A DNA stretch of 64,000 bases from Negativicoccus succinicivorans. GTDB taxonomy: Bacteria > Bacillota > Negativicutes > Veillonellales > Negativicoccaceae. Position 1 is the stretch's first letter, and each line of letters opens with the position of its first letter. This document shows positions 7,506 through 41,401 of this stretch, piece after piece. The notes beneath the pieces are model-generated. The model ran no database searches and had not been told where the DNA came from. It saw only the letters and a list, made by a program, of their open reading frames with translations. The stretch covers positions 85,801-149,800 of the forward strand of contig NZ_JAHAJN010000001.1 of assembly GCF_018372215.1 (NCBI RefSeq), given 5' to 3'. The translations under genes and the position numbers were made by a program.

Positions 7506-8808
7506 AGTGATTACCGTCATCGGTGCCGGACTGGCGGGGTGTGAAGCCGCTTGGCAGGCAGCGCAAGAAGGAGTACGTGTTCGCTTACTGGAAATGAAAC
7601 CGAAACGGTATACACCGGCACACACTTTGCCGCATTTTGCCGAACTCGTTTGCAGCAATTCGTTGCGTGCGGCAGAAATTACGAATGCGGTAGGACTTTT
7701 GAAGGAAGAAATGCGGCAATTGAATTCGCTTATCATGCAGGCGGCTGATACGCATCAAGTGCCGGCCGGCGGTGCACTTGCCGTTGATCGGGAAGGCTAT
7801 GCGCAGGCAGTGACCGATGCGATCAAAAACCATCCCTTGATCGAAGTGGTTACGGAAGAGGTCATGTCCATCCCGGAAGACGGTATTGTAATCGTTGCCA
7901 CCGGTCCGCTTACGGATGGTAAGTTAGCGGAGTCGATCGCAGCATTCAGCGGGGAAGACTATTTCCACTTTTTTGATGCCGCGGCGCCAATTGTGTATTT
8001 AGAGTCATTGAACCAAGATATAGTGTATCGCGCTTCGCGTTACAATAAAGGTCCGGCAGCATATCTCAACTGTCCATTCAATAAAGAAGAATATTTGCGC
8101 TTTCGCGAAGAACTTATCGCAGCGGAGGTAGCGGGCCAACATCATTTTGAAAAAGGCGAAATATTTGAAGGCTGCATGCCGATTGAAGTGCTCGGTAATC
8201 GCGGAGAAGATACCATGCGATTCGGACCGTTGAAGCCGGTAGGTTTGCCGGATCCGCGTACGGGCGAAGAACCGTATGCGGTGGTTCAATTGCGCCAGGA
8301 TAATGCAGAAGGCACGTTATACAATCTTGTCGGTTTTCAGACACATCTGAAATGGGGCGAACAAAAGCGGATTTTCCGCATGATTCCCGGCATGGAAAAT
8401 GCGGAATTCGCGCGTTTCGGCGTAATGCATCGCAACAGCTATATTAATTCCCCAAAGCTACTTCAAGCGACATTGCAAACTAAAAAACGCCCTACCTTGT
8501 TTTTTGCGGGACAAATTACCGGCGTGGAGGGGTATGTGGAATCTGCCGCTGCCGGTTTGCTTGCCGGTCGTAACGCGGCACGTTTGCTGCATGGTAAAAT
8601 GCTTTGGGAACCGCCGGCAACAACGGCAATCGGTAGTTTGATGCAATATATCTCGACCGATAACAAAGATAACTTCCAACCAATGAATGTAAATTTCGGC
8701 TTAATCGCTCCGTTAGCTAAGCGCGTTCCTAAAAAAGAAAAGAACATGGCACTTGCTAATCGGGCCTTGGAAGCATTGCAGGTGGCGATTGCCAATGACG
8801 AAATCTGA
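7483..8808 (+). CDS. trmFO: Methylenetetrahydrofolate--tRNA-(uracil54-C5)-methyltransferase TrmFO (Gid)
   Basis: FAD-binding N-terminus [16 protein letters not shown]. About 440 aa. Conserved dprA-topA-gid synteny. Confidence 0.9.
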
Positions 8809-9791: not shown

Positions 9792-10886
9792 ATGAGCAAA
9801 AAGCGCGTAGCGGTCGCTATGAGCGGTGGTGTTGACAGCTCATTAGTAACGGCGCGTTTGCAAGCGCAAGGTTATGATGTTATCGGTGTCACCATGCTGC
9901 TCTTTGATACCGTGAAAAATAATAAAGTAGTTGAATCTGCCGCGATTACGGATGCCAAGCGGGTAGCGGATCAATTGGCAGTGCCGCATTATGTGTTGGA
10001 TTTACGCCAATCTTTTGAAGAAAAAATTATGCAATATTTTACACAATCGTATGCTCGCGGGATTACTCCCAATCCATGTGTAATGTGCAACGATTGGATT
10101 AAATTTGGGAGTTTGTACGAGTTTAGCCGTGACCTTGACGCCGATTTTTTGGCGACAGGACACTATGCACGCGTTCTTTATAATCAAGAAAGTGACCTTT
10201 ATGAACTGCGTCGCGGTGCGGATCTGAAAAAAGATCAGTCGTATGTGTTGTATCATTTAAACCAAAAGATGTTACCCCACATTATGTTCCCGTTGGGAGA
10301 AATGCATAAGGAAGATACGCGGGCTTTGGCAAAAGAATTGAACTTACCCGTATACAATAAACCGGAGAGTCAAGATATTTGTTTTATTCCCGACAATGAT
10401 CACATCCGTTTTTTGAAAGAGCGTATTCCCGAGCAATTTGTGCCGGGAGATATTGTCGATCTTGAAGGCAATATATTAGGAGCGCATCAAGGGTTACCGG
10501 CATATACCATCGGCCAACGTAAAGGTCTTGGTGTGGCGGCAGAACATCCGTTATACGTGGTCGCTATCGATGCGGAAAATAACCGTGTCATTGTCGGCCC
10601 TAATGCGTCCATTTTCCAACGGGAAGTATGGGCGTTGGATCCGTCATTTACGGAATGGGAAACTTGCACAGAACCGTTTACCGCGCAAGCTAAAATCCGC
10701 TACGCGGCACCGGCAGCAGACTGTACTGTATATCCGGTAAAAGATGGCGTGCATGTAGTCTTTAAAGAACCGCAGCGTGCGGTAACGCCGGGCCAATCGA
10801 TTGTTTTCTATGACGGCGATCGAGTGCTTGGCGGCGCTATTATAGGACAAAATCATTGGCAAGGGGAGAACATTCGTGTCCACTGA
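9792..10886 (+). CDS. mnmA: tRNA 2-thiouridine(34) synthase MnmA
   Basis: PP-loop [13 protein letters not shown] chose ATG 9792 (GGAGGAAtagtATG) over the upstream in-frame ATG 9693, which lacks an RBS. Confidence 0.9.
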
Positions 10887-24833: not shown

Positions 24834-26570
24834 ATGGCGAATAAACAACGAAAAAATCGCCGCGATTTGAAGCAACTCCGGCTCTTGTTTAATTATGCAA
24901 AACCGTATTACGGTTGGTGGGTATTGGCCGGAATATTGGTAGCGGTGACAGTGGGACTCGATCTGTTGCGTCCGTACTTATTAAAATACGCGATCAGCGA
25001 TATATTTCCCGTGAAAGATCTTAACGCTTTATACAGGGTCGGTTGGTTGTATTTGACAACGGTATTTCTAAGCGTCGGACTTTTATATTTGTTGAATTTT
25101 TCTTTGCAATATGTGGGGCAAAATATTATTTATCGTATTCGTCAAAACGTTTTCGAACGCATTTTAGTGCAGTCGGAAAGTTCGCTGAAACGCTACAAAA
25201 CCGGTAATTTAGTCACCAAGGTAACGAATGACACAGATGCGATTCGCGCTCTTTTTATCGAGGTTTTAATTCCTTTTTGCGGTGACTTTTTAATGATGGT
25301 CGGCATCATTGTAATTTTGCTGCAAATGCATATGCGCCTCGCCTTGGCATCTTTGACAGTAATGATTTTACTGGGAATTGCGGTATATATTTTCCGCCAA
25401 TACAGCCGTCGCGCGTATCGCAAAGTGCGTTCCTGTATTTCTGTTTCCAACAGTTTTATTCAGGAAGCGATGAGCGGTATCATGATTGTCAAATCATACA
25501 ATGCGGAAAAAGCAGTAATTAAAGAGTATGATACGATTAATCAGGCCTATGTCACGGCAGGAATTCAAGAGGTCCGTACATTTTCCGTCTTTCGACCGTT
25601 TGTCGATTTTACTTATTTTATTTGTGTAGTGCTGATTTTAGGTTATACCAATTTTGCCATCGATATTACGGATGCGGCACTCGTGTTTGTTTTCATTCAG
25701 TATATTGAGAAGTTTTTTGCTCCGGTTCGCGGCATGGCAGAACGCTACAATACCTTGCAGTCTGCCTTGGCAGGGGGCGATCGCGTGGGCGAACTTTGGG
25801 AGCAAACGAGCGTGACGGAAATCGACGATCGCCCGGATTTTGAAGAGCCGTTCAGGTCTTTAGAGTTTGAGAATGTCTGGTTCCACTATGGTGACGAGGA
25901 AAAATGGGTGCTGAAAGATGTTTCCTTCCATGTCGATAATGGAGAGTTGGTGGGTATTGCTGGCACGTCAGGGGCAGGTAAAACGACAGTGATGTCGCTT
26001 GCATTGCGCATGTATATTCCGCAACGGGGACGTATTCTTTTAAACGACAAACCGATTGAAGATTATTCGATTACATCCACACGTACACTCTTGGGTTACG
26101 TTTTTCAAAATCAGCATTTGTTTAAAGGCACGGTGGCGGAAAATATCAGCTTACATAATCCGACGTTAACACCGGAACGGATTATTCATGCCTTGCAAAA
26201 AGTAAATCTTTGGGATGAAATTCAACAATTACCGCAAGGTATTTATACCCAGGCGGGATATCTGGGGAGCTTTTTTTCGGCGGGAGAGCGACAGTTGTTA
26301 TCGTTAGCTCGTGTGATGGCGCGACGGTATCCGGTGTTGGTTTTGGATGAAGCGACCGCGAATATGGATAGCGCTACGGAAGAAAGAATTCAAAAATCCC
26401 TAGCCGGTATTCGCGGTGAACGTACGATTCTTTTGATTGCACATCGCTTGTCGACGATTCGGAATGCGGATCGTATTTATGTATTTCAGGAAGGTCGGAT
26501 TATTCAGACCGGTACTTATCAGGAATTGGCCAATACATCAGGATACTTTCGGGAGTTGTTGGAATCGTGA
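24834..26570 (+). CDS. ABC transporter permease/ATP-binding protein (exporter half-transporter, subunit 2)
   Basis: TMD followed by an NBD (GTSGAGKTT). The signature FSAGERQ is degenerate, suggesting a heterodimer with one degenerate site. Confidence 0.85.
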   Translation: MANKQRKNRRDLKQLRLLFNYAKPYYGWWVLAGILVAVTVGLDLLRPYLLKYAISDIFPVKDLNALYRVGWLYLTTVFLSVGLLYLLNFSLQYVGQNIIYRIRQNVFERILVQSESSLKRYKTGNLVTKVTNDTDAIRALFIEVLIPFCGDFLMMVGIIVILLQMHMRLALASLTVMILLGIAVYIFRQYSRRAYRKVRSCISVSNSFIQEAMSGIMIVKSYNAEKAVIKEYDTINQAYVTAGIQEVRTFSVFRPFVDFTYFICVVLILGYTNFAIDITDAALVFVFIQYIEKFFAPVRGMAERYNTLQSALAGGDRVGELWEQTSVTEIDDRPDFEEPFRSLEFENVWFHYGDEEKWVLKDVSFHVDNGELVGIAGTSGAGKTTVMSLALRMYIPQRGRILLNDKPIEDYSITSTRTLLGYVFQNQHLFKGTVAENISLHNPTLTPERIIHALQKVNLWDEIQQLPQGIYTQAGYLGSFFSAGERQLLSLARVMARRYPVLVLDEATANMDSATEERIQKSLAGIRGERTILLIAHRLSTIRNADRIYVFQEGRIIQTGTYQELANTSGYFRELLES

Positions 26571-27394
26571 AAAAAGAAATTTCCAGCTTACAAAATCCGC
26601 ATTGGAAACGGGTTTGTGCGCTATCTCAACGTAAATATCGTGAGCAGTACGGTGCGTTTCTGGTGGAAGGTGCACGTGCTGTGGAAGTCATCTTGCAATC
26701 GGCCGATTTGCAATATGAGATCTGGGCTACCGAGACAGGTCTGCAGGTGAGTGGCCTTACCATAGCGGAAAAGACGCCTCTTTTTATAGTGCCTTCGAAG
26801 ATGTTCAAAGCACTCGCGCAAACGGAATCCAGTCAGGAAATTGCAGCAGTTGTAAAAATAGCAAGCTTACCGAAGGAAACAGACACAAAATCAGGTCCCA
26901 TTGCAGTATTGTGCGGTGTTCAGGACCCCGGAAATGCGGGGACAATAGTCCGCCTTGCGGCAGCGGCGGAGTGTGCTGCCGTTTGGACAACGAAAGGCAC
27001 TGTCGATTTATTTAACGATAAAGCCGTGCGCAGTTCCATGGGGACTATTTTACAAATTCCTGTGGTGCAGCAGATTGTTCCGAAAGATTTATATGATGCG
27101 GCCCGCAAACGGCAGATGCCGCTTTGGGCTACCACACTTGGTGAAAGTGTATCGTATGAAACGATGCCTTCACAGCGTAATGTTTTTTGGCTTTTCGGTA
27201 ACGAAGGTAAAGGCATTCCTGAAGAAATTTTACAGCAGGCCGATGCGCGTTTCCATATTCCGATATCGCCTACTGTAGAATCACTTAATGTAGCCATGGC
27301 GGCAGCGATTATTTTATTTCATCATCGCTTGGTGAGGAAAGGGACAGGCTATGACGGAACCTCTCGAAAATTGGCTAAAAGCATGGAAAAATAA
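26567..27394 (+). CDS. SpoU/TrmH family RNA 2'-O-methyltransferase
   Basis: SPOUT motifs (VQDPGNAGTIVRLA, FGNEGKGI, ESLNVAMAAAI). GTG start overlapping the upstream stop. Confidence 0.8.
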   Translation: MKKEISSLQNPHWKRVCALSQRKYREQYGAFLVEGARAVEVILQSADLQYEIWATETGLQVSGLTIAEKTPLFIVPSKMFKALAQTESSQEIAAVVKIASLPKETDTKSGPIAVLCGVQDPGNAGTIVRLAAAAECAAVWTTKGTVDLFNDKAVRSSMGTILQIPVVQQIVPKDLYDAARKRQMPLWATTLGESVSYETMPSQRNVFWLFGNEGKGIPEEILQQADARFHIPISPTVESLNVAMAAAIILFHHRLVRKGTGYDGTSRKLAKSMEK

Positions 27395-28108
27395 TGCCCT
27401 TGATCTGACTGAATTGGGAAAAAATATTCGGGAGTATTATGGTTTTACGGATATTAATCGCCTTTGCTGGGATGACAATCGCGTTCAGCGACAGGGGTTT
27501 CCCGAGGTGGTATTGGCCAGCGGAAAAACGTAAGAACAGCTTAGAGAGTTACTTTCATATGCAATAAATCAAAGCAAGCCCTTGCTTTTGACTCGGTTGA
27601 GTAAGGAAATGGGCGAATATTTACATACACTCGCACCGCAAGCTAAATGGGACGAGATTGGACGTGTATTTGCGTACGGCCACTGTTCCCATCAAACCAT
27701 ACGCTCTTTTGTGGCGGTAGTAACCGCCGGTGCCGCTGATGAAAGTGTAGCTCGTGAAGCGGTGGCAACACTTGAGTTTTTAGGCATTCCCGTGAAAGCA
27801 TATTATGATCGCGGTGTGGGGGCATACATCGCTTGCTGGCAGTTTGTAAAGAACTGAAGGATGCGCAAGTTTGCATTGCGATTGCCGGTATAGAGGGCGC
27901 TCTCCCTACGGTGATAAGCGGATTAATTCCGGCCCCGGTGATCGGAGTGCCGACTTCGGTGGGGTACGGTGTAGCGCAAAACGGCATGACGGCTCTTTTC
28001 GGGATGCTTACCAGCTGTGCAGATAAAGTCGCAGTGGTGAATATTGATAACGGTTATGGTGCTGCCCGAGTGGCTGCAGCAATTTGCCGAGAAAAGGATC
28101 CGTCATGA
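27351..28108 (+). pseudogene. larB: larB (nickel-pincer cofactor biosynthesis, PurE-like carboxylase/hydrolase) disrupted by an in-frame TAA at 27531-27533 and a 1-nt deletion in the G5 run at 27818-27822
   Basis: Three ORF pieces (27351-27533, 27582-27857 in the same frame, 27833-28108 in frame +2) concatenate to a full LarB: ...GFPEVVLASGKT*EQL...VAVVTAGAADE...YYDRGV[A][12 protein letters not shown]...[28 protein letters not shown]...[11 protein letters not shown]. Confidence 0.6.
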
Positions 28109-28538
28109 AACAATTGGAGACTAATCTGGATGACATGACGCCGGAAACGCTTGCCTATGTGCAGGAACGACTTTTGGCGGCAGGTGCGCTGGATGTTTGG
28201 TATATCCCGATTGTTATGAAAAAAGTCGTCCGGCAGTTACCTTGTGTGTGCTTTGTGATGAAAAGCAATCGCAAGCGCTGGTTGACTTCATCTTGCAGGA
28301 AACAACCAGTTGGGGAGTACGCGAATTTACGTGTGAGCGAACGGTTTTACCCACGCAAGAAACAGAGATTTCCTTGTACGGTGAATCGGTGCGCGTGAAG
28401 TACGCTCGCGCAGAAAACAAGTACAAATGTAAGTCGGAGTATGAAGATTGTGCCCGTATTGCACGAGCGCAAAACATACCATTACGACAAGTGCAAGCGG
28501 AAGCGAAAATGAAAGGGGAAGATAGGCTTGCCAAATGA
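28105..28538 (+). pseudogene. larC: larC C-terminal (LarC2) domain fragment, frameshifted (1-nt deletion in the A6 run at 28219-28224). No LarC1 part is present.
   Basis: [14 protein letters not shown]...[14 protein letters not shown] | [14 protein letters not shown]...ETTSWGVRE... is contiguous LarC C-terminal sequence only if A6 is read as A7. Start overlaps the larB stop (ATGA). Confidence 0.5.
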
Positions 28539-29466
28539 GTCGCCGGATGCTCTGCGTCAGAAATTGGCTCAGCGTCTGAAGCAATATGATATAATAATAA
28601 CTAATACAAAAGCGATCCCGTACGGTATCCAGTGGAAAGTTGTGCGCGCTGAAAAGACGGCAATTTTAAACACTTATCACGGTAAAAAAGGCTTCCGACT
28701 GGTGATCCAAACCAAGGATCCTGAATGGAAAGAAGAACTGGAAGCCCTGGCAACCAATCTTAATTCGTCTGGCGCGGAAGCGAAGAAAACCAAAGCGGCA
28801 ACGGAAGATAGAAAAGTAATTGACACGCATGTGATCGGTTGTGATGAATCCGGCAAGGGGGATGTACTGGGACCGCTTGTTGTCGCAGCCGTGTACCTTA
28901 CCAAAGATCAGGCTCGAGAAGTAGTATCATGGGGCGTTCGTGACAGTAAAGAACTGACCGATCTCCAAATTACGAAATTAGCACAACGTTTTCTGGATCA
29001 ATATGAGGATCAAGCTGAAATCACAATACTTGCTCCGCAATTATATAATGAAAAATATGCCGCTTACCAAAAAAACGGCAAAAACTTGAATGATCTTTTG
29101 ACTGATTTGCATTTCGCCAATATGAAAAAATTATTACAGCGTTTTCCTGCTGAGCAAATTATTTTGGATCGTTTTGCTCGCGAAGAACTAATGCAAAAAA
29201 AATGGGCGACGGCGCAAATTACCGTGCCTCTTTTGCAAACGCCTCGCGGCGAACGATACCCTGCGGTGGCAATGGCGTCTATCTTGGCCCGTGCCGCATT
29301 TGTAGATACGCTGGCAGCGTTGGGAGAAAAGTACCATACACAACTTCCCAAGGGGGCGTCGTTTATGGTGCGCCAGTTCTTGGTAAGTTTTGCACAAAAA
29401 CATGCACAAAAAGACTTACAAATGATCGGCAAATGGCACTTCTCAACGTTTGATCGTTATCGATAA
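28528..29466 (+). CDS. rnhC: Ribonuclease HIII
   Basis: N-terminal TBP-like domain followed by an RNase H fold with GCDESGKGDVLGPL. 312 aa. TTG start with GAAAGGGGAAG RBS. Confidence 0.85.
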   Translation: MPNESPDALRQKLAQRLKQYDIIITNTKAIPYGIQWKVVRAEKTAILNTYHGKKGFRLVIQTKDPEWKEELEALATNLNSSGAEAKKTKAATEDRKVIDTHVIGCDESGKGDVLGPLVVAAVYLTKDQAREVVSWGVRDSKELTDLQITKLAQRFLDQYEDQAEITILAPQLYNEKYAAYQKNGKNLNDLLTDLHFANMKKLLQRFPAEQIILDRFAREELMQKKWATAQITVPLLQTPRGERYPAVAMASILARAAFVDTLAALGEKYHTQLPKGASFMVRQFLVSFAQKHAQKDLQMIGKWHFSTFDRYR

Positions 29467-29475
29467 GGAGCCAAT

Positions 29476-30327
29476 ATGAAATTTTTAATTGTGAATGCGG
29501 ATGATTTTGGTTTACATCCGTCTGTCAATGAAGCGATAGCGCGCGGTTTTCAAAACGGAATTATTACCAGTACTACCCTATTGGCGGGTGGCGCCGCTTT
29601 TGAAGACGCAATCGCCGTAGCAGAAACATTACCGCGACTCGGAGTGGGCATTCATACTGCGTTAGTCGGTGGGATAGACCCGGTGGCGGATCCGGCGGAA
29701 GTCAAAAGTTTGCTTGACGAAAACGGTAAATTATTGGCCGACTATGGTGAATTCATTCGCCGCGATTTGGCCGGAGAAATCGATTACAATGATGTGTATC
29801 GGGAGCTTTCAGCCCAATTTGAGAAAATTGCGGAAACAAAATTAACTATTACACATGTCGACGGACACCAGCATTTACATGTCTGGCCACGTGTCTTACC
29901 GATTGTGTTGACCTTATGTGAGAAATATCATATTCGTGCGATGCGCATTCCGGCCGAAAATATTCGCTACGGTAAACATCTTGCGGATTGGCGTCGTTTG
30001 TTTGGAAAAACGGGCCTTACCGTGTTAGCAAATCGGGCACGACGTAAAATACGTGCAGCCGGAATGGCGACGACCGAACATTTTTGGGGGATGATGGATG
30101 GCGGTCATTTGACGGAACGCAAATTGTTGCAACTTTTCCCACAATTGCAAGACGGTTTCCATGAATTGATGTGCCATCCGGGCAGCAGCAATCTTTATCT
30201 GGGAGCTCAATATGGCTGGGAATATAACTGGGAAAAAGAGTACCAGGCGTTAACTTCACCAAATGTTTATGAATTATTGATGCATGAAGGCATTCACAGA
30301 ATCAATTTTGGAGTGATCGGCGCATGA
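29476..30327 (+). CDS. ChbG/YdjC/HpnK family carbohydrate (N-acetylglucosaminyl) deacetylase
   Basis: YdjC signature at the N-terminus (LIVNADDFGL) and the D..H.H motif (HVDGHQHLH). Confidence 0.8.
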   Translation: MKFLIVNADDFGLHPSVNEAIARGFQNGIITSTTLLAGGAAFEDAIAVAETLPRLGVGIHTALVGGIDPVADPAEVKSLLDENGKLLADYGEFIRRDLAGEIDYNDVYRELSAQFEKIAETKLTITHVDGHQHLHVWPRVLPIVLTLCEKYHIRAMRIPAENIRYGKHLADWRRLFGKTGLTVLANRARRKIRAAGMATTEHFWGMMDGGHLTERKLLQLFPQLQDGFHELMCHPGSSNLYLGAQYGWEYNWEKEYQALTSPNVYELLMHEGIHRINFGVIGA

Positions 30328-31346
30328 ATCATACCGTCCGTAACGGTATTTTATTATTTGCACTGATTGCAATTGTGACCTTTTGCACGGTGTACTTTAC
30401 TATCGACTTTACTACCTGGCACGCACTTACGTATTTTTCCTTTTCCAATATTTTACTGGCGCTTGGAATTTGGAGTGTCGGTATGTATTTTGACGGTCTG
30501 CGTTTGCAACGTCTTGTGGCAATGAACGGTTATAAAGTGCGTTTGATCGGCATTATGCAGGTGATTTTCGGTAACTACTTTATGGGATTGCTGACCCCCG
30601 GCGCTGCCGGTGGTGCTATTGCACAAGTACTGATTTTGCGAAGTATCGGCGTACCGGTGGCTAAAAGTAGTATGATCGTTATCATTCGCACCATTTTTTC
30701 GATTTTGTTTTTGGTGTTTGCGTTACCGTTTGTCTTTTTCTTTGATCATTTGGATATTCCGTATATCGGAAACAGCACTTTATTTTATATTGCGATAGCT
30801 TTTTTATTGGCTTGTTTGTTTGGGTTTTGGTTATTTTCCGGATCTTCTGGCAAAAAATGGACATTTGTTATGCTGCACACTTGCGGTTTTTCCAAGCAAC
30901 GTATTCGAAAACTTTTGCGTTTTCTGGATGATTTAACCGTTACTTTACAGATCATGAAAGATAGTCCATGGGATACGTTCCTTGTCTTTCTTTATTCCGG
31001 ACTTAGTTTGTGTTGTATTTACGGAATCTTACCGGCTTTGCTTTGGAAAAGTAATGCCGCAGTCAGCAACTTGTTCCTGTTAGGGCGTATGATCGTATTG
31101 AATTTTATGCTCTACTTCGCGCCGACACCTGGTGGCACCGGTATTGCTGAAGGATTTTTTGTACTTTTGTTTAAAGGATATGTGCCTCGGGGTACGGTAG
31201 GTTTACTTGCCGTCATGTGGCGTTTTATAGCGGAGTATATTCCGTTCTTTTTAGGCATGTATTTTATGTTAACTCTGTTCGGAAAAAAATATTTATTGGG
31301 GAAGACTCAAGATCCGGGACACTTACCCCAGCGGTTGGAGGAGTAA
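30324..31346 (+). CDS. Flippase-like domain membrane protein (UPF0104; like the MprF/LPG-synthase transmembrane region)
   Basis: 340 aa with about 8 predicted TM helices, Gly-rich TPGGTG / AAGGA loops typical of PF03706. Translationally coupled to the YdjC gene (ATGA overlap). Confidence 0.7.
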   Translation: MNHTVRNGILLFALIAIVTFCTVYFTIDFTTWHALTYFSFSNILLALGIWSVGMYFDGLRLQRLVAMNGYKVRLIGIMQVIFGNYFMGLLTPGAAGGAIAQVLILRSIGVPVAKSSMIVIIRTIFSILFLVFALPFVFFFDHLDIPYIGNSTLFYIAIAFLLACLFGFWLFSGSSGKKWTFVMLHTCGFSKQRIRKLLRFLDDLTVTLQIMKDSPWDTFLVFLYSGLSLCCIYGILPALLWKSNAAVSNLFLLGRMIVLNFMLYFAPTPGGTGIAEGFFVLLFKGYVPRGTVGLLAVMWRFIAEYIPFFLGMYFMLTLFGKKYLLGKTQDPGHLPQRLEE

Positions 31347-35572: not shown

Positions 35573-35661
35573 TTATTGCACCTCATTGATTTATTTCTAT
35601 TATTATAGCTGATTTTACTTAAGATCGCCATTAAGGAGGAAGAGGAGTGGGATCCATTACG

Positions 35662-36222
35662 ATGATATTAGGCGGTGCCCGTAGCGGTAAAAGTGCTTAT
35701 GCCGAAATGATTTTAGAGCAACATTCGGCGGTGAGCAAGGGCTACATAGCAACCGCCCGCGTTTGGGATGAAGAAATGGCGTTGCGGGTACGTTGGCACC
35801 AGGAACGTCGACCCGATGCGTGGCAAACGTTTATGTATGACCCTCCTAAGTCGAAATCTTTAGGAGAGATCCTACAAGTTTGCGAAGTCTATCTGTTTGA
35901 CTGTGTTACAATGTATGTAAATAATTTATTAATGGACCGTTTAACGGAAGAGGAGCTTACTCCCGGCAACAACATTTCAAAAGAACGCTTACAGATCGTC
36001 ACGGAAGCAGTTGAGATGGAGATTCAAAAACTTATCGACACGATTGTTTCCAGTGACAAAGACTTTATTTTTGTTTCCGATGAATTGGGTCTGGGAATCG
36101 TGCCGGATAATCCGTTAAGCAGGGTCTATCGAGATTTAGTCGGTTTGGCCAATCAGCGTTTAACTGCGCAAGCACAACGGGTTGAATTTGTGCTTTGCGG
36201 GATTCCGAAACGGATCAAATAA
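35662..36222 (+). CDS. cobU: Adenosylcobinamide kinase / adenosylcobinamide-phosphate guanylyltransferase
   Basis: P-loop ILGGARSGKS. About 185 aa. The upstream in-frame GTG 35647 is an alternative start. Confidence 0.85.
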   Translation: MILGGARSGKSAYAEMILEQHSAVSKGYIATARVWDEEMALRVRWHQERRPDAWQTFMYDPPKSKSLGEILQVCEVYLFDCVTMYVNNLLMDRLTEEELTPGNNISKERLQIVTEAVEMEIQKLIDTIVSSDKDFIFVSDELGLGIVPDNPLSRVYRDLVGLANQRLTAQAQRVEFVLCGIPKRIK

Positions 36223-36231
36223 GGAGGACGC

Positions 36232-37776
36232 ATGGCAAAAACAATTATGTTTCAAGGCACCAGCTCGCATGTGGGTAAAAGCATTTTAACGACAGCGTTG
36301 TGCCGTATTTTATTGCAAGATGGATATAGTGTGACACCATTTAAAGCACAGAATATGGCTTTGAATTCTTACGTTACGAAGGCCGGTGATGAGATCGGCC
36401 GCGCGCAAGTCGCACAAGCGGAAGCGGCGGGGATGGATCCCATCGTGCAAATGAATCCCGTGCTCTTAAAGCCATCCGGAAATCAGACATCTCAAGTTGT
36501 CTTAATGGGGAAACCGGTTGGAGTTTACAGTGCGCGTGAATACCATGAACACTATAGTCTGACTGCGTGGGATAAAGTCAAAGAAAGTGTGGATTATCTG
36601 CGGAACCATTTTGATGTAGTGGTGATTGAAGGCGCGGGAAGTCCCGCTGAGGTGAACCTCAAAGCGACAGATATTGTCAATATGCGTGTAGCGCTGGAAT
36701 TGAATGCGCCGGTTGTTCTTGTCGCCGATATTGATCGTGGTGGCGCGCTGGCTGCTGTGGTAGGTACTTTGGAATTACTGTCTTCGGAAGAACGTGCCCA
36801 TGTAAAAGGAATTGTTATTAATAAGTTCCGTGGTGATATTAAGTTATTGGAACCTGCCATCGATTTTTTGGAAGAGAAAACCAAAATTCCCGTGCTTGGA
36901 GTGGTGCCTTATCTGCAAGATTTGGGGATTGATAACGAAGATTCCGTATCCTTGGCAGACAAAAAGCTTTCAGCACAGGCAAAAGAACTTGAAATCGCAG
37001 TTTTACAAACACCGAAAATTTCCAATTTTACGGACTTTGACGTATTCAGTCATGAACCCGATGTAGAAGTGCGTTACGTTCGTCGCGGTGACAGTATCGG
37101 GCATCCGGATGTGATTATTTTACCGGGCAGCAAAAATACGACAGAAGATCTTTTGTATCTGCAACAGTTTGGTTATGTAGATGAAATTCGTCGTCTTGCT
37201 AAAGAAGGTACACCTGTCATAGGAATTTGTGGCGGTTACCAAATGTTGGGCGAAGAGATTACGGATCCGCAACACGTCGAAAGCAAATACGACCGCATCG
37301 ATGGCATCGGACTTTTACCGCTTTCCACAGAGATGGCAGGAACTAAAACTACCAATCAGGTCAAATTCTCCTGTCGCGATTTTTCTTTTTTAGATTTACA
37401 TGCGAATTGGGATGACCTTGCGGGCTACGAAATCCACATGGGAAAAAGCGTTTTTACCCATCATGACACGGCTGCTTTTCACATTACTGAACGCAGCTTG
37501 CATGAAGTTGATATCCAGGACGGCTTAGTAACCGCAGACGGTAATTGTTTCGGAACCTACATTCATGGCATTTTTGATAATGATGAATTGCGCCGAGGCA
37601 TTTTGAACGCGTTACGAAAGAAAAAAGGTTTAGCGTCACTTCCGGTGCAATTTCGTTTACAGGAATATAAAGAATCCGAATATGACCGCTTAGCCGCTAC
37701 GGTTCGCGAAGCATTGAATATGGATTTGGTGTATGAATTGCTGGAATTTGCACCGACGAAAAATGTCATAAAATGA
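36232..37776 (+). CDS. cobQ: Cobyric acid synthase
   Basis: MFQGTSSHVGKS ATPase N-terminus plus a glutamine amidotransferase C-terminus. 514 aa. Confidence 0.9.
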   Translation: MAKTIMFQGTSSHVGKSILTTALCRILLQDGYSVTPFKAQNMALNSYVTKAGDEIGRAQVAQAEAAGMDPIVQMNPVLLKPSGNQTSQVVLMGKPVGVYSAREYHEHYSLTAWDKVKESVDYLRNHFDVVVIEGAGSPAEVNLKATDIVNMRVALELNAPVVLVADIDRGGALAAVVGTLELLSSEERAHVKGIVINKFRGDIKLLEPAIDFLEEKTKIPVLGVVPYLQDLGIDNEDSVSLADKKLSAQAKELEIAVLQTPKISNFTDFDVFSHEPDVEVRYVRRGDSIGHPDVIILPGSKNTTEDLLYLQQFGYVDEIRRLAKEGTPVIGICGGYQMLGEEITDPQHVESKYDRIDGIGLLPLSTEMAGTKTTNQVKFSCRDFSFLDLHANWDDLAGYEIHMGKSVFTHHDTAAFHITERSLHEVDIQDGLVTADGNCFGTYIHGIFDNDELRRGILNALRKKKGLASLPVQFRLQEYKESEYDRLAATVREALNMDLVYELLEFAPTKNVIK

Positions 37777-38738
37777 CAGCCTATTTATATTGTGCAGTGC
37801 CATTTCTGGCTCTGTTAGCGGATACTTTAATCGGTGATCCTCGCAGTCGCTTTCATCCGGTTGTTTTGATCGGCAAAGCGATAAGTTTTTGGGAGTCTGT
37901 TTTTTTTCGCCCCCGAGTCGGTGTAAAAAAAACAATTTATGACGGCGTATTTTTGGTCATCGCCGTTTTATTGAGTGTGGCCTTACCGGTGTATATTGTT
38001 CTGCTTATTTTGGCGGAAATTCATTATACAGCATACATTAGTGGTTGTATTTTCATCCTTTATATCACGATCACACCACAGGCTTTAGCTCGTGATGCAA
38101 AAAAAATTTATCGTTGCCTTGCCGATAAAAATCTTCCAGAAGCACGTCGTCAATTAAGTTGGATAGTGGGGCGTGATACGGCACATCTTGGAGAAAGTGA
38201 AATTGCCCGCGCTACGATTGAAACCGTAGCAGAAAATATTGTCGATGGGATCATTTCACCGTTGTTTTATTTTTGGTTGCTGGGACCGTTGGGGGCTGCT
38301 CTATATCGTGCGATCAATACCATGGATTCGATGGTGGGATATAAGAATGAGCGGTATCTGTATTTCGGTCGCGCGGCTGCAAAGCTGGATGATGTGGTCA
38401 ACTGGGTGCCGGCTCGTTTGACGGCAGGATTATTGTTGGTGAGCAGTGCCGCACTGGGATTTTCAGCTCGGCAGGCATGGTTGATGATGCGTCGCGATGC
38501 GCATACACATCCCAGTCCGAATGGCGGTTACAGTGAAGCCACTGTTGCGGGCGCACTGGGGATTCGTCTGGGAGGCTATAATCAATACCAGGGGAAAACG
38601 GAATTTCGGAGTTACATGGGCGATCCACATGAGAAAATTCAGCGCTTTCATATTCGTAAGACAGTGCAGTTAATGTACACCAGTACTTTTCTCGGGACGC
38701 TTTGTATCACGTTGCTATTACTGCTGGGTGAATTATGA
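37773..38738 (+). CDS. cbiB: Adenosylcobinamide-phosphate synthase CbiB/CobD
   Basis: Membrane protein with GDPRSRFHPV near the N-terminus. Confidence 0.9.
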   Translation: MTAYLYCAVPFLALLADTLIGDPRSRFHPVVLIGKAISFWESVFFRPRVGVKKTIYDGVFLVIAVLLSVALPVYIVLLILAEIHYTAYISGCIFILYITITPQALARDAKKIYRCLADKNLPEARRQLSWIVGRDTAHLGESEIARATIETVAENIVDGIISPLFYFWLLGPLGAALYRAINTMDSMVGYKNERYLYFGRAAAKLDDVVNWVPARLTAGLLLVSSAALGFSARQAWLMMRRDAHTHPSPNGGYSEATVAGALGIRLGGYNQYQGKTEFRSYMGDPHEKIQRFHIRKTVQLMYTSTFLGTLCITLLLLLGEL

Positions 38739-39487
38739 AACCTTTTTTAATCGGATTACAATTTTTAACACGTTTTAAAATCGTTCGTCAGGAAGTGTGG
38801 CCGGATGATCAATTCGGTGCTTCCGTTGCATATTTCCCCTTAGTCGGTTTGGTCATCGGAATTTTTCTTGCGCTGCTGTATTGGCTCACCGCAAGTTGGA
38901 TAGATTCGTTTTTAATGGCGGTACTGCTTGTCTTAGCCGAAATGATTATTACCGGCGGCTTACACGCAGACGGATTTATGGACACGTGTGACGGCTATTT
39001 CTCGGGTCGCAACCGGGAACGGATGCTGGAGATAATGAAAGACAGCCGCGTCGGCTCGGAGGGTATTGTCGGATTTGTTTTTTTGGTGTTGTTAAAAATC
39101 GGTTTGTATATGAATATCTCCGGACCGCTTTGGCCGTTACTTATCATCATGCCGCTGATCAGTCGCTGGCTGATGAGCTGGACTATTGTACGTTTTCCTT
39201 ACGCACGGACACAAGGAATGGGGAAGGCGTTTGCGGACAATGCTCCTGCATACACATTACAGGTAGCTACCGCTTGCCTTTTATTGGCGATCCCGGTGGG
39301 AGGACTTAAAAGCATTTTACCGATGCTTTTTGCCTTTGGTTGGATGCAATGGGCGAATATTCATTTCGTCAAAAAGTTAGGTGGCGTTACCGGTGATACT
39401 TACGGTGCCATTACAGAGACATCTGAAATTGTTATTTTATTGACTTGGCTATTGCAGGAACGGATCGGTGTATGGAATTTGTTGTAA
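38735..39487 (+). CDS. cobS: Adenosylcobinamide-GDP ribazoletransferase (cobalamin synthase)
   Basis: Polytopic membrane protein of 250 aa, CobS family. Confidence 0.9.
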   Translation: MKPFLIGLQFLTRFKIVRQEVWPDDQFGASVAYFPLVGLVIGIFLALLYWLTASWIDSFLMAVLLVLAEMIITGGLHADGFMDTCDGYFSGRNRERMLEIMKDSRVGSEGIVGFVFLVLLKIGLYMNISGPLWPLLIIMPLISRWLMSWTIVRFPYARTQGMGKAFADNAPAYTLQVATACLLLAIPVGGLKSILPMLFAFGWMQWANIHFVKKLGGVTGDTYGAITETSEIVILLTWLLQERIGVWNLL

Positions 39488-40341
39488 AATCTCCGGGAGC
39501 ATGCGGTGAATTAATTCAGGGGCAAATTGACGGACAAAACTTTTTAGTTACTTGTCCTATTGAACGATACTCCATCGCAACAGCTTGGCCCAAAACAATT
39601 GCCCATACTCATGAGCTTCCGTATAAAGCGCAACAAGCTGTAACGTTGACTAAAGAGTACTTAAAGATTGTGCAGGATATTGATGTGGTACTGTACTCTG
39701 AACTGAAGGATGGTAAGGGGATGGCCTCCAGTTCGGCAGATATTAGTGCGGTTTGTTTAGCGGTTGCCTTAGCCGCCGAGCGGCATTTGTCGATGCAGGA
39801 GCTGGCGCGTTTAGCACTGTCAATTGAACCCAGCGATGCCACATTTTATCCGGGCATTGTTCAATTTGACCATTTGCAAGGGCGTTTTTTACGGCCGCTC
39901 GGTCATTTTCCGGAAGCTTATATTTGTATTTTTGATCAAGGTGGAGTGATTGACACCGTGGAGTTTAACGCCCGGGAAGACTTGATCAATAAGCGTGCTA
40001 TTAAGGAAAAAGAAATACAAAAAGCCCTTACCCTATTGATAGAAGGTTTACGTAAGGGTGATATGATAAAAATTGGAACAGCTGCTACGATGAGCGCCTA
40101 TGCCAATCAGGAAATATTGCCGCGTCCGTATCTAGCGGATTTGCATGCATGGGGAAAAGAGTTGGGATCTAATGGTGTTATTGTTGCGCACAGTGGCACC
40201 GTTTGCGGGTTGCTGTTGACAGATCTTAAAAAGCTGGAAGATATTCGTAGTGGCCTGGCGGTTGAGTTTGGCAATACACTGACATTTTTAGACTGCGTAA
40301 AAGTTTATAATGGAGGCATACATTTTGTCCATAGATCTTGA
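39472..40341 (+). CDS. pduX: L-threonine kinase PduX-like (GHMP kinase family)
   Basis: MEFVVKSPGACGELIQG N-terminus resembles PduX (ASCGELIQG). GHMP motif GKGMASSSA. Sits between cobS and cobD. Confidence 0.7.
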   Translation: MEFVVKSPGACGELIQGQIDGQNFLVTCPIERYSIATAWPKTIAHTHELPYKAQQAVTLTKEYLKIVQDIDVVLYSELKDGKGMASSSADISAVCLAVALAAERHLSMQELARLALSIEPSDATFYPGIVQFDHLQGRFLRPLGHFPEAYICIFDQGGVIDTVEFNAREDLINKRAIKEKEIQKALTLLIEGLRKGDMIKIGTAATMSAYANQEILPRPYLADLHAWGKELGSNGVIVAHSGTVCGLLLTDLKKLEDIRSGLAVEFGNTLTFLDCVKVYNGGIHFVHRS

Positions 40342-41401
40342 TGCACTTTATGCTTCGTTTCAACATGGCGGCAATATTTATGCCTTGCCGCCATCTGTAC
40401 GGGAGCAAGTAGAAGACTTCAGTGCCAATATCAATCCGTTAGGCCTTTCGCCGGAAGGCGTGGAGGCGTTACAGGATTGGCCGACCTTGGCTTTGCATTA
40501 TCCGGAACCGAATAATAGCACGTTACGAAAAGCAGTGGCTCGATTTTACCAATACGATGAGGCTGGAGTTGTGCTTGGCAACGGGGCTACAGAGCTTTTA
40601 TTTACTGTCTTCAGGTATTGGCGACCGGCTACCGTCTGGATCCCTGTGCCGACATTTAGTGAATATTCACGGGCGGCCATTGCGGTCGGAGCGGAAATAC
40701 GCCAAATTGCTTGGGAAGATCTTCCGAACAGCTTGACGCAGATGAACAAGGGGGATGTCCTTTGCATTTGTTCGCCTAACAATCCGACCGGCGTGTATAC
40801 CGATGTAAGCCAACTAAAGCAGTGGTTGCAAGCAGCACGTACGCGTGGCGCCCGTGTTTTAGTAGACGAGTCATTTATTGATTTTAATCCTAATTTGGAT
40901 ACGGCCAGAAGTCTTCTCGGTAAATGCGATGACTTTGTAGTATTGCATTCATTGACAAAATTTTGGGGTATTCCCGGTTTGCGCGCCGGCGTCATGTTTG
41001 CTGCGCCTCAATTGGCGGAAACGGTGTATGCCGATCTCGACATTTGGAATGTCAATGCGCTGACCGCATCCTATTTAAAAGCGGCTTTTAATGATATAGA
41101 ATATTTTCAAAATACGCAACGATTTGTCTATGAGGAAAAAGAACGCGTATATGAAAACTATGTAGCGCTTTCGGAATTTTTTGTATATCCGCCCACGGCT
41201 AATTTTATTCTGCTGAACTTACAAGGGAAAATCACTGCCGCTGAACTTACTGAACGCTTATTGGCGAAGGGGTTAATGATTCGCAATTGTGATAATTACC
41301 ACGGCCTTGATGCGTACCATGTGCGGATTGCTATTCGCCAAGCGGCCGCCAATGACAGGTTGTTTACGGCGATTTCTAAGGAGGTATCGCGATCCAGGTG
41401 A
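40310..41401 (+). CDS. cobD: L-threonine-O-3-phosphate decarboxylase (CobD; PLP fold type I)
   Basis: HGGNIY...DFSANINPLG N-terminal signature. Aminotransferase class I/II fold. Confidence 0.8.
   Translation: MEAYILSIDLDALYASFQHGGNIYALPPSVREQVEDFSANINPLGLSPEGVEALQDWPTLALHYPEPNNSTLRKAVARFYQYDEAGVVLGNGATELLFTVFRYWRPATVWIPVPTFSEYSRAAIAVGAEIRQIAWEDLPNSLTQMNKGDVLCICSPNNPTGVYTDVSQLKQWLQAARTRGARVLVDESFIDFNPNLDTARSLLGKCDDFVVLHSLTKFWGIPGLRAGVMFAAPQLAETVYADLDIWNVNALTASYLKAAFNDIEYFQNTQRFVYEEKERVYENYVALSEFFVYPPTANFILLNLQGKITAAELTERLLAKGLMIRNCDNYHGLDAYHVRIAIRQAAANDRLFTAISKEVSRSR

What the first reader, a model, noticed from the sequence alone, without database searches (positions are those of the whole stretch)
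27351..28538. Decayed nickel-pincer (lar) locus: larB with a nonsense codon plus a frameshift, and larC reduced to a frameshifted LarC2 fragment
The only disrupted reading frames in the whole 64 kb cluster here, while about 60 other genes are intact. LarB is readable end-to-end if the TAA at 27531-27533 is a sense codon and the G5 run at 27818-27822 is G6 (or has an adjacent base restored). That restores the conserved PurE-like ...YDRGVAGIHRLL... segment. Directly coupled (ATGA) is only the C-terminal roughly 145 aa of LarC, starting at the conserved [11 protein letters not shown] region, and it is itself broken by an A6 run at 28219-28224 that must be A7 to read [18 protein letters not shown]. 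There is no LarC1 (CTP-binding) half, and no larA or larE anywhere in the window. Three lesions, two of them in homopolymers, in a locus that has also lost its partner genes argue for genuine erosion of a lactate-racemase cofactor pathway. A trivial alternative is homopolymer sequencing error.
Basis: partly seen in the sequence, partly recalled or inferred. Interest (0 to 1): 0.55.

Follow-up and report, generated by a model that had tools for sequence, protein, structure and literature searches.

The report
Recently decayed larB–larC2 gene pair
Two adjacent genes for building a nickel-containing enzyme cofactor have been knocked out by three small mutations in one widespread lineage of the human-associated bacterium Negativicoccus succinicivorans; this is ordinary gene loss, but the intermediate steps are still visible in other strains.

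Summary
Window 27351-28108 is larB, broken by a TAA at 27531 and by a 1-base deletion at 27818-27822. Window 28105-28538 is a 144-codon larC2, broken by A7>A6 at 28219-28224. The repaired translations score well above the curated LarB and LarC2 cut-offs.

The lesions are real, not sequencing errors. Identical lesions occur in independently assembled contigs, and the 60-aa nonsense fragment is indexed in 260 blocks of public assemblies.

Other N. succinicivorans strains, the N. massiliensis type strain and an 89%-identity clade carry both genes intact at the same position. Intermediate alleles have only the larB frameshift and an intact larC2, so larB broke first.

- The short larC is not a product of this erosion. 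A stand-alone LarC2 right after larB is the ancestral state. It is intact and under purifying selection (dN/dS about 0.1) in relatives, including a Veillonellaceae MAG only 50% identical.
- LarC2, not LarC1, is the CTP-binding half.

I could not test whether LarC1, LarE or a cofactor-using enzyme exists elsewhere in the genome.

Verdict: a genuine, recent, lineage-specific pseudogenisation of a known gene pair. Low novelty.

The parts
27351..28108 (+). larB pseudogene. It encodes the NaAD carboxylase/hydrolase of nickel-pincer cofactor synthesis and is 252 codons when repaired. Its start overlaps the end of the upstream SpoU-type methyltransferase gene by 44 nt.
   Evidence: The repaired translation scores 244.5 bits on NCBIfam LarB NF033503 (cut-off 175). 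It is 97% identical to the intact 252-aa LarB P0001. It aligns to the L. plantarum LarB structures 7mj0 and 8soq at E about 1e-50.
27531..27533 (+). Nonsense codon TAA in larB codon 61; the ancestral codon is CAA (Gln).
   Evidence: All intact and intermediate alleles (L002, L011, L012, L014, L015) have CAA. TAA is the commonest ordinary stop in the window, 33 of 64 ORFs.
27818..27822 (+). larB frameshift. The G5 run was created by deletion of the C in ancestral GTGGCGGGC, inside the conserved DxGVAGIHRL motif.
   Evidence: DNA alignment of seven alleles. The lesion is shared by the window, L001, L011 and L012. It is the only lesion in the intermediates L011 and L012, so it came first.
27892..27892 (+). 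ATG>ATA (Met181Ile) in the conserved AGMEGAL motif of LarB. It is present in all three frameshifted alleles compared at this site (window, L011, L012).
   Evidence: Met is conserved at this position in L. plantarum and C. magnum LarB.
28105..28538 (+). larC2 pseudogene. It encodes a stand-alone LarC2, the CTP-binding half of the nickel insertase LarC, 144 codons when repaired. It is coupled to larB by an ATGA overlap, and its end overlaps the RNase HIII gene start by 11 nt.
   Evidence: It scores 147.6 bits on NCBIfam nickel_LarC2 NF052512 (cut-off 50) and matches Pfam PF01969 positions 247-374/375. It matches the L. plantarum LarC2 crystal structure 6bwo at E=3.5e-25. Intact 144-aa orthologues sit at the same place in L002, L011, L012, L014, L016 and L017.
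28219..28224 (+). larC2 frameshift. The A6 run was A7 ancestrally (AAGAAAA in the 89% clade). It lies inside the invariant MKKxRP motif.
   Evidence: One search gives the DNA alignment. One search shows that M38, K39, K40 and R42 are at least 97% conserved in 58 full-length LarC sequences.
28434..28434 (+). CCG>TCG (Pro111Ser) at a 95%-conserved LarC2 position. It is shared by the window and by intermediate L011, whose larC2 ORF is still open.

Best explanation
The locus is a dead copy of a two-gene module, larB plus a stand-alone larC2, in one clonal and widely distributed sublineage of Negativicoccus succinicivorans.

In intact relatives the module sits between a SpoU-type RNA methyltransferase gene and the RNase HIII gene. 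The two genes are translationally coupled. By homology, LarB would make pyridinium-3,5-dicarboxylate mononucleotide from NaAD, and LarC2 would be the CTP-binding, CMP-transferring half of the nickel insertase LarC. That function is inferred, not shown.

The steps of the loss are shown:
1. A single C was deleted in larB, destroying the C-terminal catalytic half. Alleles with only this lesion still exist.
2. In a descendant, larB then acquired CAA>TAA and the now useless larC2 lost one A from an A7 run. Amino-acid changes at conserved sites also accumulated.

The fragments have no function now. The DNA is presumably still transcribed as part of the long co-directional gene array (inferred).

The absence of LarC1 next to larB is an older event. 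It is shared with a relative whose LarB is 50% identical, and it is not part of this decay.
For: **The lesions are real and inherited**
- L001 is 99.98% identical to the window over 12.5 kb, and L045 differs at one base outside lar over 3.2 kb. Both are identical to the window across the lar region. L046 is identical there apart from a run of N.
- The 60-aa fragment sits on 132 contigs from NCBI, JGI, Logan and ENA and is indexed in 260 blocks.

**Intact state at the same position**
- L002, at 96.2% DNA identity, has larB 252 aa plus larC2 144 aa.
- The GTDB representative of N. succinicivorans (L016) and the N. massiliensis Marseille-P2082 chromosome (L017) are also intact.
- So is the 89% clade, L014 and L015.

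**Intermediates**
- L011, L012 and L013 encode a 168-aa LarB, meaning the frameshift with Gln at codon 61. L011 and L012 also carry an intact A7 larC2.

**Selection**
- Between the intact alleles L002 and L014, dN/dS is 0.117 for larB and 0.105 for larC2. The flanking SpoU gene gives 0.14 and RnhC gives 0.16.
- For larC2, window versus L002 gives 0.53 (10.5 non-synonymous, 5.5 synonymous).
- Broken alleles carry M181I in LarB and P111S in LarC2, both at conserved sites.

**No general homopolymer error**
- The window has 162 long homopolymer runs.
- Over 19 kb compared with L016, no indel other than the two in lar falls inside a coding sequence.

**Stand-alone LarC2 is ancestral**
- The Veillonellaceae MAG L003 shows the order SpoU - LarB(260) - LarC2(148) - RNase HIII - YdjC.
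Against: - Nothing contradicts pseudogenisation.
- I had no read-level data for the window's own assembly. If the window and the matching contigs all came from one mis-assembled reference, the independence argument would weaken. However, L001 and L045 differ from the window at a few bases outside lar, and they come from different assemblers and samples.
- The dN/dS rise in larC2 rests on 16 substitutions and is only suggestive.
- The M181I change could have preceded the frameshift, so the first inactivating hit is not certain.
- The biochemical roles assigned to the intact pair are by homology only, and a LarC2 without LarC1 has no demonstrated activity.
Confidence: 0.92

Rival explanations
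1. Sequencing or assembly error: the genes are intact in the cell, and the two frameshifts are homopolymer miscalls.
For: Two of the three lesions touch homopolymer runs, G5 and A6.
Against: - The same lesions are base-identical in separately assembled contigs from different samples and assemblers: L001, L045 and L046.
- The fragments are indexed in hundreds of assemblies.
- The G5 run is the result of deleting a C, not of a miscounted run.
- The TAA is a substitution.
- Alleles with one lesion and alleles with three both exist.
- 162 other long homopolymers in the window cause no frame breaks.
Confidence: 0.02
2. Programmed recoding or phase variation: the A6 run is a slippery site, as at the L. 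plantarum larC1/larC2 junction. Ribosomal -1 slippage, transcriptional slippage or reversible A6/A7 switching would still yield LarC2.
For:
- larC of L. plantarum uses a programmed frameshift (PMC13510736).
- L044 has an A9 run at its LarC1/LarC2 junction.
Against: - All relatives have in-frame A7, or AAGAAAA in the 89% clade, so the shift is not conserved.
- It lies inside LarC2, not at a domain junction.
- A6 is short for efficient slippage.
- The partner gene larB carries a nonsense codon plus a non-homopolymer deletion that no known recoding would bypass.
- LarC2 carries P111S at a conserved site.
Confidence: 0.03
3. One reading: one continuing erosion of a once complete lar operon, in which LarC1 was truncated away and larA and larE were lost as part of the same process that made the three lesions.
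For: - In 17 of 25 other genomes sampled, larB is followed by a larC that includes LarC1, so an ancestor very probably had it.
- 10 of 12 Negativicutes genomes in one survey carry LarA homologues (supplement of PMC11770544).
- The window has no LarC1, LarE or LarA.
Against: - The LarC1-less arrangement is shared with a MAG whose LarB is only 50% identical.
- After that event, both genes stayed intact under dN/dS of about 0.1.
- They kept 20 of 21 conserved LarC2 positions.
- The two events are therefore separated by a long period of selection, and the three lesions are recent and confined to one sublineage.
Confidence: 0.05

Closest known systems
LarB of Lactiplantibacillus plantarum (pyridinium-3,5-biscarboxylic acid mononucleotide synthase; PDB 7mj0, 8soq)
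   Same: - The repaired window protein and the intact Negativicoccus LarB align over residues 41-245 at E about 1e-50.
- They pass the NCBIfam LarB equivalog cut-off.
- The intact alleles keep the DxGVAGIHRL, AGMEGAL and NSC(A) motifs, the last containing the Cys that aligns with L. plantarum Cys221.
   Different: The window copy is interrupted by a stop codon and a frameshift upstream of the catalytic C-terminal half, and it carries Met>Ile in AGMEGAL.
LarC2 domain of LarC (L. plantarum LarC2 crystal structure 6bwo; full-length Moorella thermoacetica LarC 12bi)
   Same: - It matches 6bwo over residues 3-134 at E=3.5e-25.
- The same 20 of 21 strongly conserved positions are kept, including DD, MKKxRP, GxR and PE.
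- According to PMC13510736, LarC2 is the hexameric core that binds CTP.
   Different: - It is a separate 144-aa polypeptide with no LarC1 in the same gene or within 10 kb.
- The nearly invariant Arg at position 84 is Thr (Met in L016).
- In the window it is frameshifted.
Split larC genes (larC1 + larC2 as separate ORFs)
   Same: - NCBIfam keeps separate LarC1 (TIGR00299.2) and LarC2 (NF052512) models.
- L044 has adjacent larC1 and larC2 ORFs.
- LarC1-only genes follow larB in L032 and L043.
- An Anaerolineae MAG has larE-larB-larC2-only.
   Different: In Negativicoccus the LarC1 partner is not adjacent, and I could not establish whether it exists anywhere in the genome.
Lineage-specific pseudogenes in small, host-associated bacterial genomes
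   Same: A few point lesions hit an accessory pathway. They are fixed in a clonal lineage, while the genes stay intact in sister lineages and selection on the functional partner gene is relaxed.
   Different: Nothing essential. This case is unusual only in that a one-lesion intermediate is still sampled.

Membership tests
LarB (NCBIfam NF033503, AIR-carboxylase fold PF00731) | Sequence passes the curated family model | tested here: met
   The repaired translation scores 244.5 bits against a cut-off of 175. PF00731 gives 61.7 bits against a cut-off of 30.
LarB (NCBIfam NF033503, AIR-carboxylase fold PF00731) | Uninterrupted reading frame encoding the catalytic C-terminal half | tested here: not met
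   The window has TAA at 27531 and a 1-base deletion at 27818-27822. The feature is met in relatives L002, L014, L016 and L017.
LarB (NCBIfam NF033503, AIR-carboxylase fold PF00731) | NaAD carboxylase/hydrolase activity | not testable with these tools
   Needs an enzyme assay of an intact Negativicoccus allele.
LarC2 domain of the nickel insertase LarC (NF052512; C-terminal part of PF01969) | Sequence passes the curated domain model and keeps the family-conserved residues | tested here: met
   It scores 147.6 bits against a cut-off of 50. 20 of 21 positions that are at least 85% conserved in 58 full-length LarC sequences are kept in intact Negativicoccus LarC2; the exception is Arg84.
LarC2 domain of the nickel insertase LarC (NF052512; C-terminal part of PF01969) | Uninterrupted reading frame | tested here: not met
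   The window has A6 instead of A7 at 28219-28224. The feature is met in L002, L011, L012, L014, L016 and L017.
Complete LarC cyclometallase (LarC1 + LarC2) | A LarC1 (His-rich, nickel-binding) domain in the same protein or an adjacent gene | tested here: not met
   tblastn with residues 1-280 of C. magnum LarC finds nothing in the 64-kb window, L002, L003, L016 or L017. larB ends where larC2 starts.
Complete LarC cyclometallase (LarC1 + LarC2) | A LarC1 gene elsewhere in the genome | not testable with these tools
   A LarC1-core profile search returned 8000 or more hits. The 120 listed include none named Negativicoccus, but this is uninformative. No tool gave whole-genome access.
Nickel-pincer nucleotide pathway (LarB + LarE + LarC, with LarA or another user enzyme) | LarE sulfur transferase and a cofactor-using enzyme present | tested here: inconclusive
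   Both are absent from the window: the only PP-loop hit is MnmA, and none of ten ORFs of 350-441 aa is a LarA. LarE is also absent from the flanks of L002 and L003 and of L016 and L017. The rest of the genome was not searched.
Programmed frameshift of the L. plantarum larC1/larC2 type | Frameshift conserved among relatives and placed at the LarC1/LarC2 junction | tested here: not met
   Relatives are in frame at this site, and the site lies inside LarC2 at the MKK motif.

The most novel reading that the evidence does not exclude
In Negativicoccus and its Veillonellaceae relatives, larB plus a LarC1-less larC2 may be a self-sufficient module. It has been kept under purifying selection since LarC1 was deleted. 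It might make something other than the canonical nickel-pincer cofactor, for example a CMP-activated pyridinium dicarboxylate with no enzymatic nickel insertion. The broken lineage would then be a natural double knock-out showing that the product is dispensable.

My evidence does not exclude this, because I could not search the genomes for LarC1, LarE or a user enzyme. The more ordinary alternative is that those genes are simply encoded elsewhere.
Probability: 0.12. Interest if true: 0.55.

Novelty: already known. Interest (0 to 1): 0.2.

Why it matters
In itself it matters little. It is a well-documented example of recent, stepwise loss of an accessory cofactor pathway in a small host-associated genome.

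It has three modest uses:
- **Annotation.** The four fragments, which RefSeq in places names as separate proteins (an 'AIR carboxylase family protein' of 91 aa and a hypothetical protein of 82 aa), should be two pseudogenes.
- **A strain marker.** The three lesions define a clonal N. succinicivorans lineage that is common in public metagenomes.
- **A natural experiment.** larC2 began to decay once larB was broken. This supports a functional dependence of this stand-alone LarC2 on LarB. It also provides intact, half-broken and fully broken strains for anyone studying what a LarC1-less LarC2 does.

Tried and rejected
1. **TAA as a sense codon or altered genetic code.** Rejected: TAA ends 33 of 64 ORFs in the window, and relatives have CAA.
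2. **General homopolymer error in the assembly.** Rejected.
3. **LarC1 or LarE hidden in the window.** tblastn finds nothing. The weak LarE-like hit at 9807-10412 is MnmA.
4. **Looking for a Negativicoccus LarC1.** I searched the 5.8-billion-protein set with a LarC1-core profile. The hit list saturated at 8000 candidates with 120 shown, so it is uninformative for this genus. It did show that LarC1-only-sized proteins are very common.
5. **Searching paper supplements for Negativicoccus lar gene content.** This gave only a class-level figure for Negativicutes (10 of 12 with LarA homologues).
6. **Testing whether stand-alone LarC2 proteins form a distinct clade.** They do not. An exhaustive representative search places the Negativicoccus LarC2 at 40-52% identity to the LarC2 domains of ordinary full-length LarC. 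Two of the short hits (P0189, and probably P0192) are frameshifted full-length larC, not true stand-alone genes.
7. **RNA families and promoter or terminator scans around the locus.** Nothing was found above background. The 114-aa antisense ORF 27643-27987 lies wholly inside larB; I did not test it further and treat it as spurious.
8. **A role for Arg84 of LarC2.** I could not find one in the LarC structure paper.
Full report
**1. What is in the sequence**

- An ORF starts at ATG 27351, inside the last 44 nt of a SpoU-type RNA methyltransferase gene (26567-27394; Pfam SpoU_methylase).
- It reads 60 codons to TAA 27531-27533, then continues in the same frame to ...AYYDRGV at a G5 run (27818-27822).
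- The LarB-like reading then moves to another frame ([12 protein letters not shown]...) and ends at TGA 28106-28108.
- An ATG at 28105 (ATGA overlap) opens [14 protein letters not shown]...VMKK.
- After the A6 run 28219-28224 the reading moves frame again ([14 protein letters not shown]...) and ends at 28538. That is 11 nt inside the RNase HIII gene (28528-29466; Pfam RNase_HII, named RNase HIII from its length and context). A YdjC gene follows.

With one residue restored at each lesion, the family scores are clear:
- The 252-aa product scores 244.5 bits on NCBIfam LarB (cut-off 175).
- The 144-aa product scores 147.6 bits on NCBIfam nickel_LarC2 (cut-off 50).
- The 144-aa product also matches Pfam PF01969 positions 247-374 of 375.

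The rest of the window is a compact array of about 64 open ORFs with no other fragmented stretch.

**2. Organism**

Source names attached to identical or near-identical proteins identify the organism as Negativicoccus succinicivorans. The window is 96.2% identical over 19 kb to the GTDB representative of that species. It is 93.3% identical to the N. massiliensis Marseille-P2082 chromosome.

**3. The lesions are real**

- A metagenome scaffold (L001) is 99.98% identical to the window over 12.5 kb and identical across the whole lar region.
- A SPAdes contig from another sample (L045) is also identical across the lar region. A 491-kb JGI contig (L046) is identical there apart from a run of N.
- The exact 60-aa N-terminal fragment is on 132 contigs from NCBI, JGI, Logan and ENA. 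It is indexed in 260 blocks of the assembly collection.
- The larB frameshift is not a homopolymer miscount. Relatives read GTGGCGGGC and the window reads GTGG-GGGC, so a C was deleted and the G5 run is the consequence.
- The window holds 162 other long homopolymer runs.
- Over 19 kb against L016, the only indels inside a coding sequence are the two in lar. The other four lie between genes or at a stop codon.
- TAA is the commonest normal stop codon here, 33 of 64.

**4. Intact and intermediate alleles**

At the same position, between the same neighbours, the following carry larB of 252 codons and larC2 of 144 codons, both open:
- L002, at 96.2% identity;
- the species representative L016;
- N. 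massiliensis L017;
- an 89%-identity clade (L014, L015).

They have CAA (Gln) at 27531 and GGCGGG at the G run. At the A run they have A7, or AAGAAAA in the 89% clade.

Three further contigs (L011, L012, L013) encode a 168-aa LarB, meaning the frameshift with Gln still at codon 61. L011 and L012 also keep an intact A7 larC2.

The order of events is therefore:
1. the C deletion in larB;
2. then CAA>TAA in larB and A7>A6 in larC2.

L012 is a mosaic. Its larB resembles the window's and its larC2 resembles L002's, which indicates recombination within the locus.

**5. Selection**

Nei-Gojobori estimates between two intact alleles, L002 and L014, are:

| Gene | dN/dS |
|---|---|
| larB | 0.117 |
| larC2 | 0.105 |
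| SpoU (flank) | 0.14 |
| RNase HIII (flank) | 0.16 |

So the pair is functional where it is intact. In the broken lineage:
- larC2 shows 10.5 non-synonymous against 5.5 synonymous differences from L002, a ratio of 0.53. The count is small, so this is only suggestive.
- The three frameshifted alleles compared (window, L011, L012) share Met181Ile in the conserved AGMEGAL motif of LarB.
- The window and L011 share Pro111Ser at a 95%-conserved LarC2 position, even though L011's larC2 is still an open frame.

This is the pattern expected if LarC2 became useless once LarB was lost.

**6. The short larC is not a decay product**

A Veillonellaceae MAG (L003) has a LarB only 50% identical. It shows the same order: ABC transporters, SpoU, LarB (260 aa), LarC2-only (148 aa), RNase HIII, YdjC.

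In 17 of 25 other genomes sampled through their larB, the next gene is a larC that includes LarC1. Fifteen of those are full length. An ancestor therefore probably had larB-larC and lost or moved the LarC1 part long ago.

Since then the stand-alone LarC2 has kept 20 of 21 positions that are at least 85% conserved in 58 full-length LarC proteins. The exception is Arg84, which is Thr, or Met in L016.

Split LarC is not exotic:
- NCBIfam has separate LarC1 and LarC2 models.
- L044 has adjacent larC1 and larC2 ORFs joined at an A9 run.
- L032 and L043 have LarC1-only genes after larB.
- An Anaerolineae MAG has larE-larB-larC2-only.
- A LarC1-core profile finds thousands of proteins of 240-290 aa.

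According to the 2026 cryo-EM study of LarC, LarC2 forms the hexameric core with the CTP site where the substrate is CMPylated. LarC1 carries the His-rich nickel site (PMC13510736).

**7. What could not be settled**

The window has no LarC1, LarE or LarA. LarC1 and LarE are also missing from the 10-kb flanks in relatives. No tool let me search a whole Negativicoccus genome.

One survey lists LarA homologues in 10 of 12 Negativicutes genomes (supplement of PMC11770544), so dispersed partners are plausible.

If none exists, the conserved LarB plus LarC2-only pair would be a small puzzle of its own. I give that reading about 12%.

**8. Other checks**

No Rfam family matches 25000-31000 at E of 0.1 or below. 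Promoter-like sites are at the background level, and the terminator-like matches (11 against about 5 expected) are weak and lie within coding sequence. The antisense 114-aa ORF inside larB was not tested further, and I treat it as spurious.

A -1 slip on the A6 run would restore LarC2. However, the site is in frame in all relatives, and larB cannot be rescued in that way. Programmed recoding is therefore very unlikely.

**9. Verdict**

- The core interpretation (genuine erosion, not sequencing error) is supported, and it is strengthened by the discovery of intact and half-broken alleles.
- The claims about a truncated larC and a CTP-binding LarC1 are wrong.
- The claim that the partner genes were lost is untested beyond the window.

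This is an ordinary, recent, lineage-specific pseudogenisation of known genes. Interest is low. It has a minor side question about LarC1-less LarC2 genes.

Noticed in passing
L044 10001-11220 (genome LR130785.1), junction near 10770-10800: The order is larE-larB-larC1(265 aa)-larC2(131 aa). The two larC ORFs meet at an A9 run (GGTAAAAAAAAAGTG), and LarC2 continues in another frame. This looks like the programmed frameshift or slippage junction described for L. plantarum larC.
   Followed up: partly
L032 10657-11508 (Eubacteriales MAG); L043 7746-8480 (Fuchsiella alkaliacetigena): These are LarC1-only genes (283 and 244 aa, with a His-rich stretch in L032) directly after larB. No LarC2 lies within the fetched locus. 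They mirror the Negativicoccus LarC2-only arrangement.
   Followed up: partly
L009/L010 8472-10456 (Anaerolineae MAG): The operon is larE-larB-larC2-only (151 aa), with no LarC1 within 10 kb on either side. This is a second, unrelated lineage with a stand-alone LarC2 coupled to larB, here together with LarE.
   Followed up: partly
LarC2 residue 84: window codon 28353-28355; L002, L014, L016, L017, L003: An Arg present in 98% of 58 full-length LarC proteins is Thr (Met in L016) in every Negativicoccus and Veillonellaceae-MAG stand-alone LarC2. The Anaerolineae stand-alone LarC2 keeps Arg. I found no role for this residue in the LarC structure paper.
   Followed up: partly
L012 2215-3403 versus window 27351-28538 and L002: This is a mosaic allele. 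Its larB is nearly identical to the window's (2-3 differences, frameshift included), while its larC2 is nearly identical to that of the intact strain L002 (1 difference). That indicates homologous recombination inside the locus.
   Followed up: partly
window 27610-27857 and 27833-28108: RefSeq and GenBank records annotate the larB fragments as separate proteins: WP_303988333.1, a hypothetical protein of 82 aa, and WP_303988334.1, an 'AIR carboxylase family protein' of 91 aa. One MAG carrying them is labelled N. massiliensis. They should be annotated as one pseudogene.
   Followed up: no
P0300 (596 aa, from the representative search): This protein has three separate LarC2-like stretches. It is the second-best hit to the Negativicoccus LarC2. 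Its context and nature were not examined.
   Followed up: no
window 35647-41401 and L001/L003 downstream genes: A cobalamin-biosynthesis block (CobU, CbiA-type amidase, CobD/CbiB, aminotransferase) lies about 7 kb downstream of the lar locus in the same co-directional gene array. It is conserved in the Veillonellaceae MAG. I saw no evident link to lar.
   Followed up: no
tool behaviour: the search for homologous proteins listed only hits up to about 1.7 times the query length. A 144-aa LarC2 query therefore returned no full-length LarC, although the exhaustive representative search shows many at the same identity. Length distributions from that tool should not be read as biology.
   Followed up: yes
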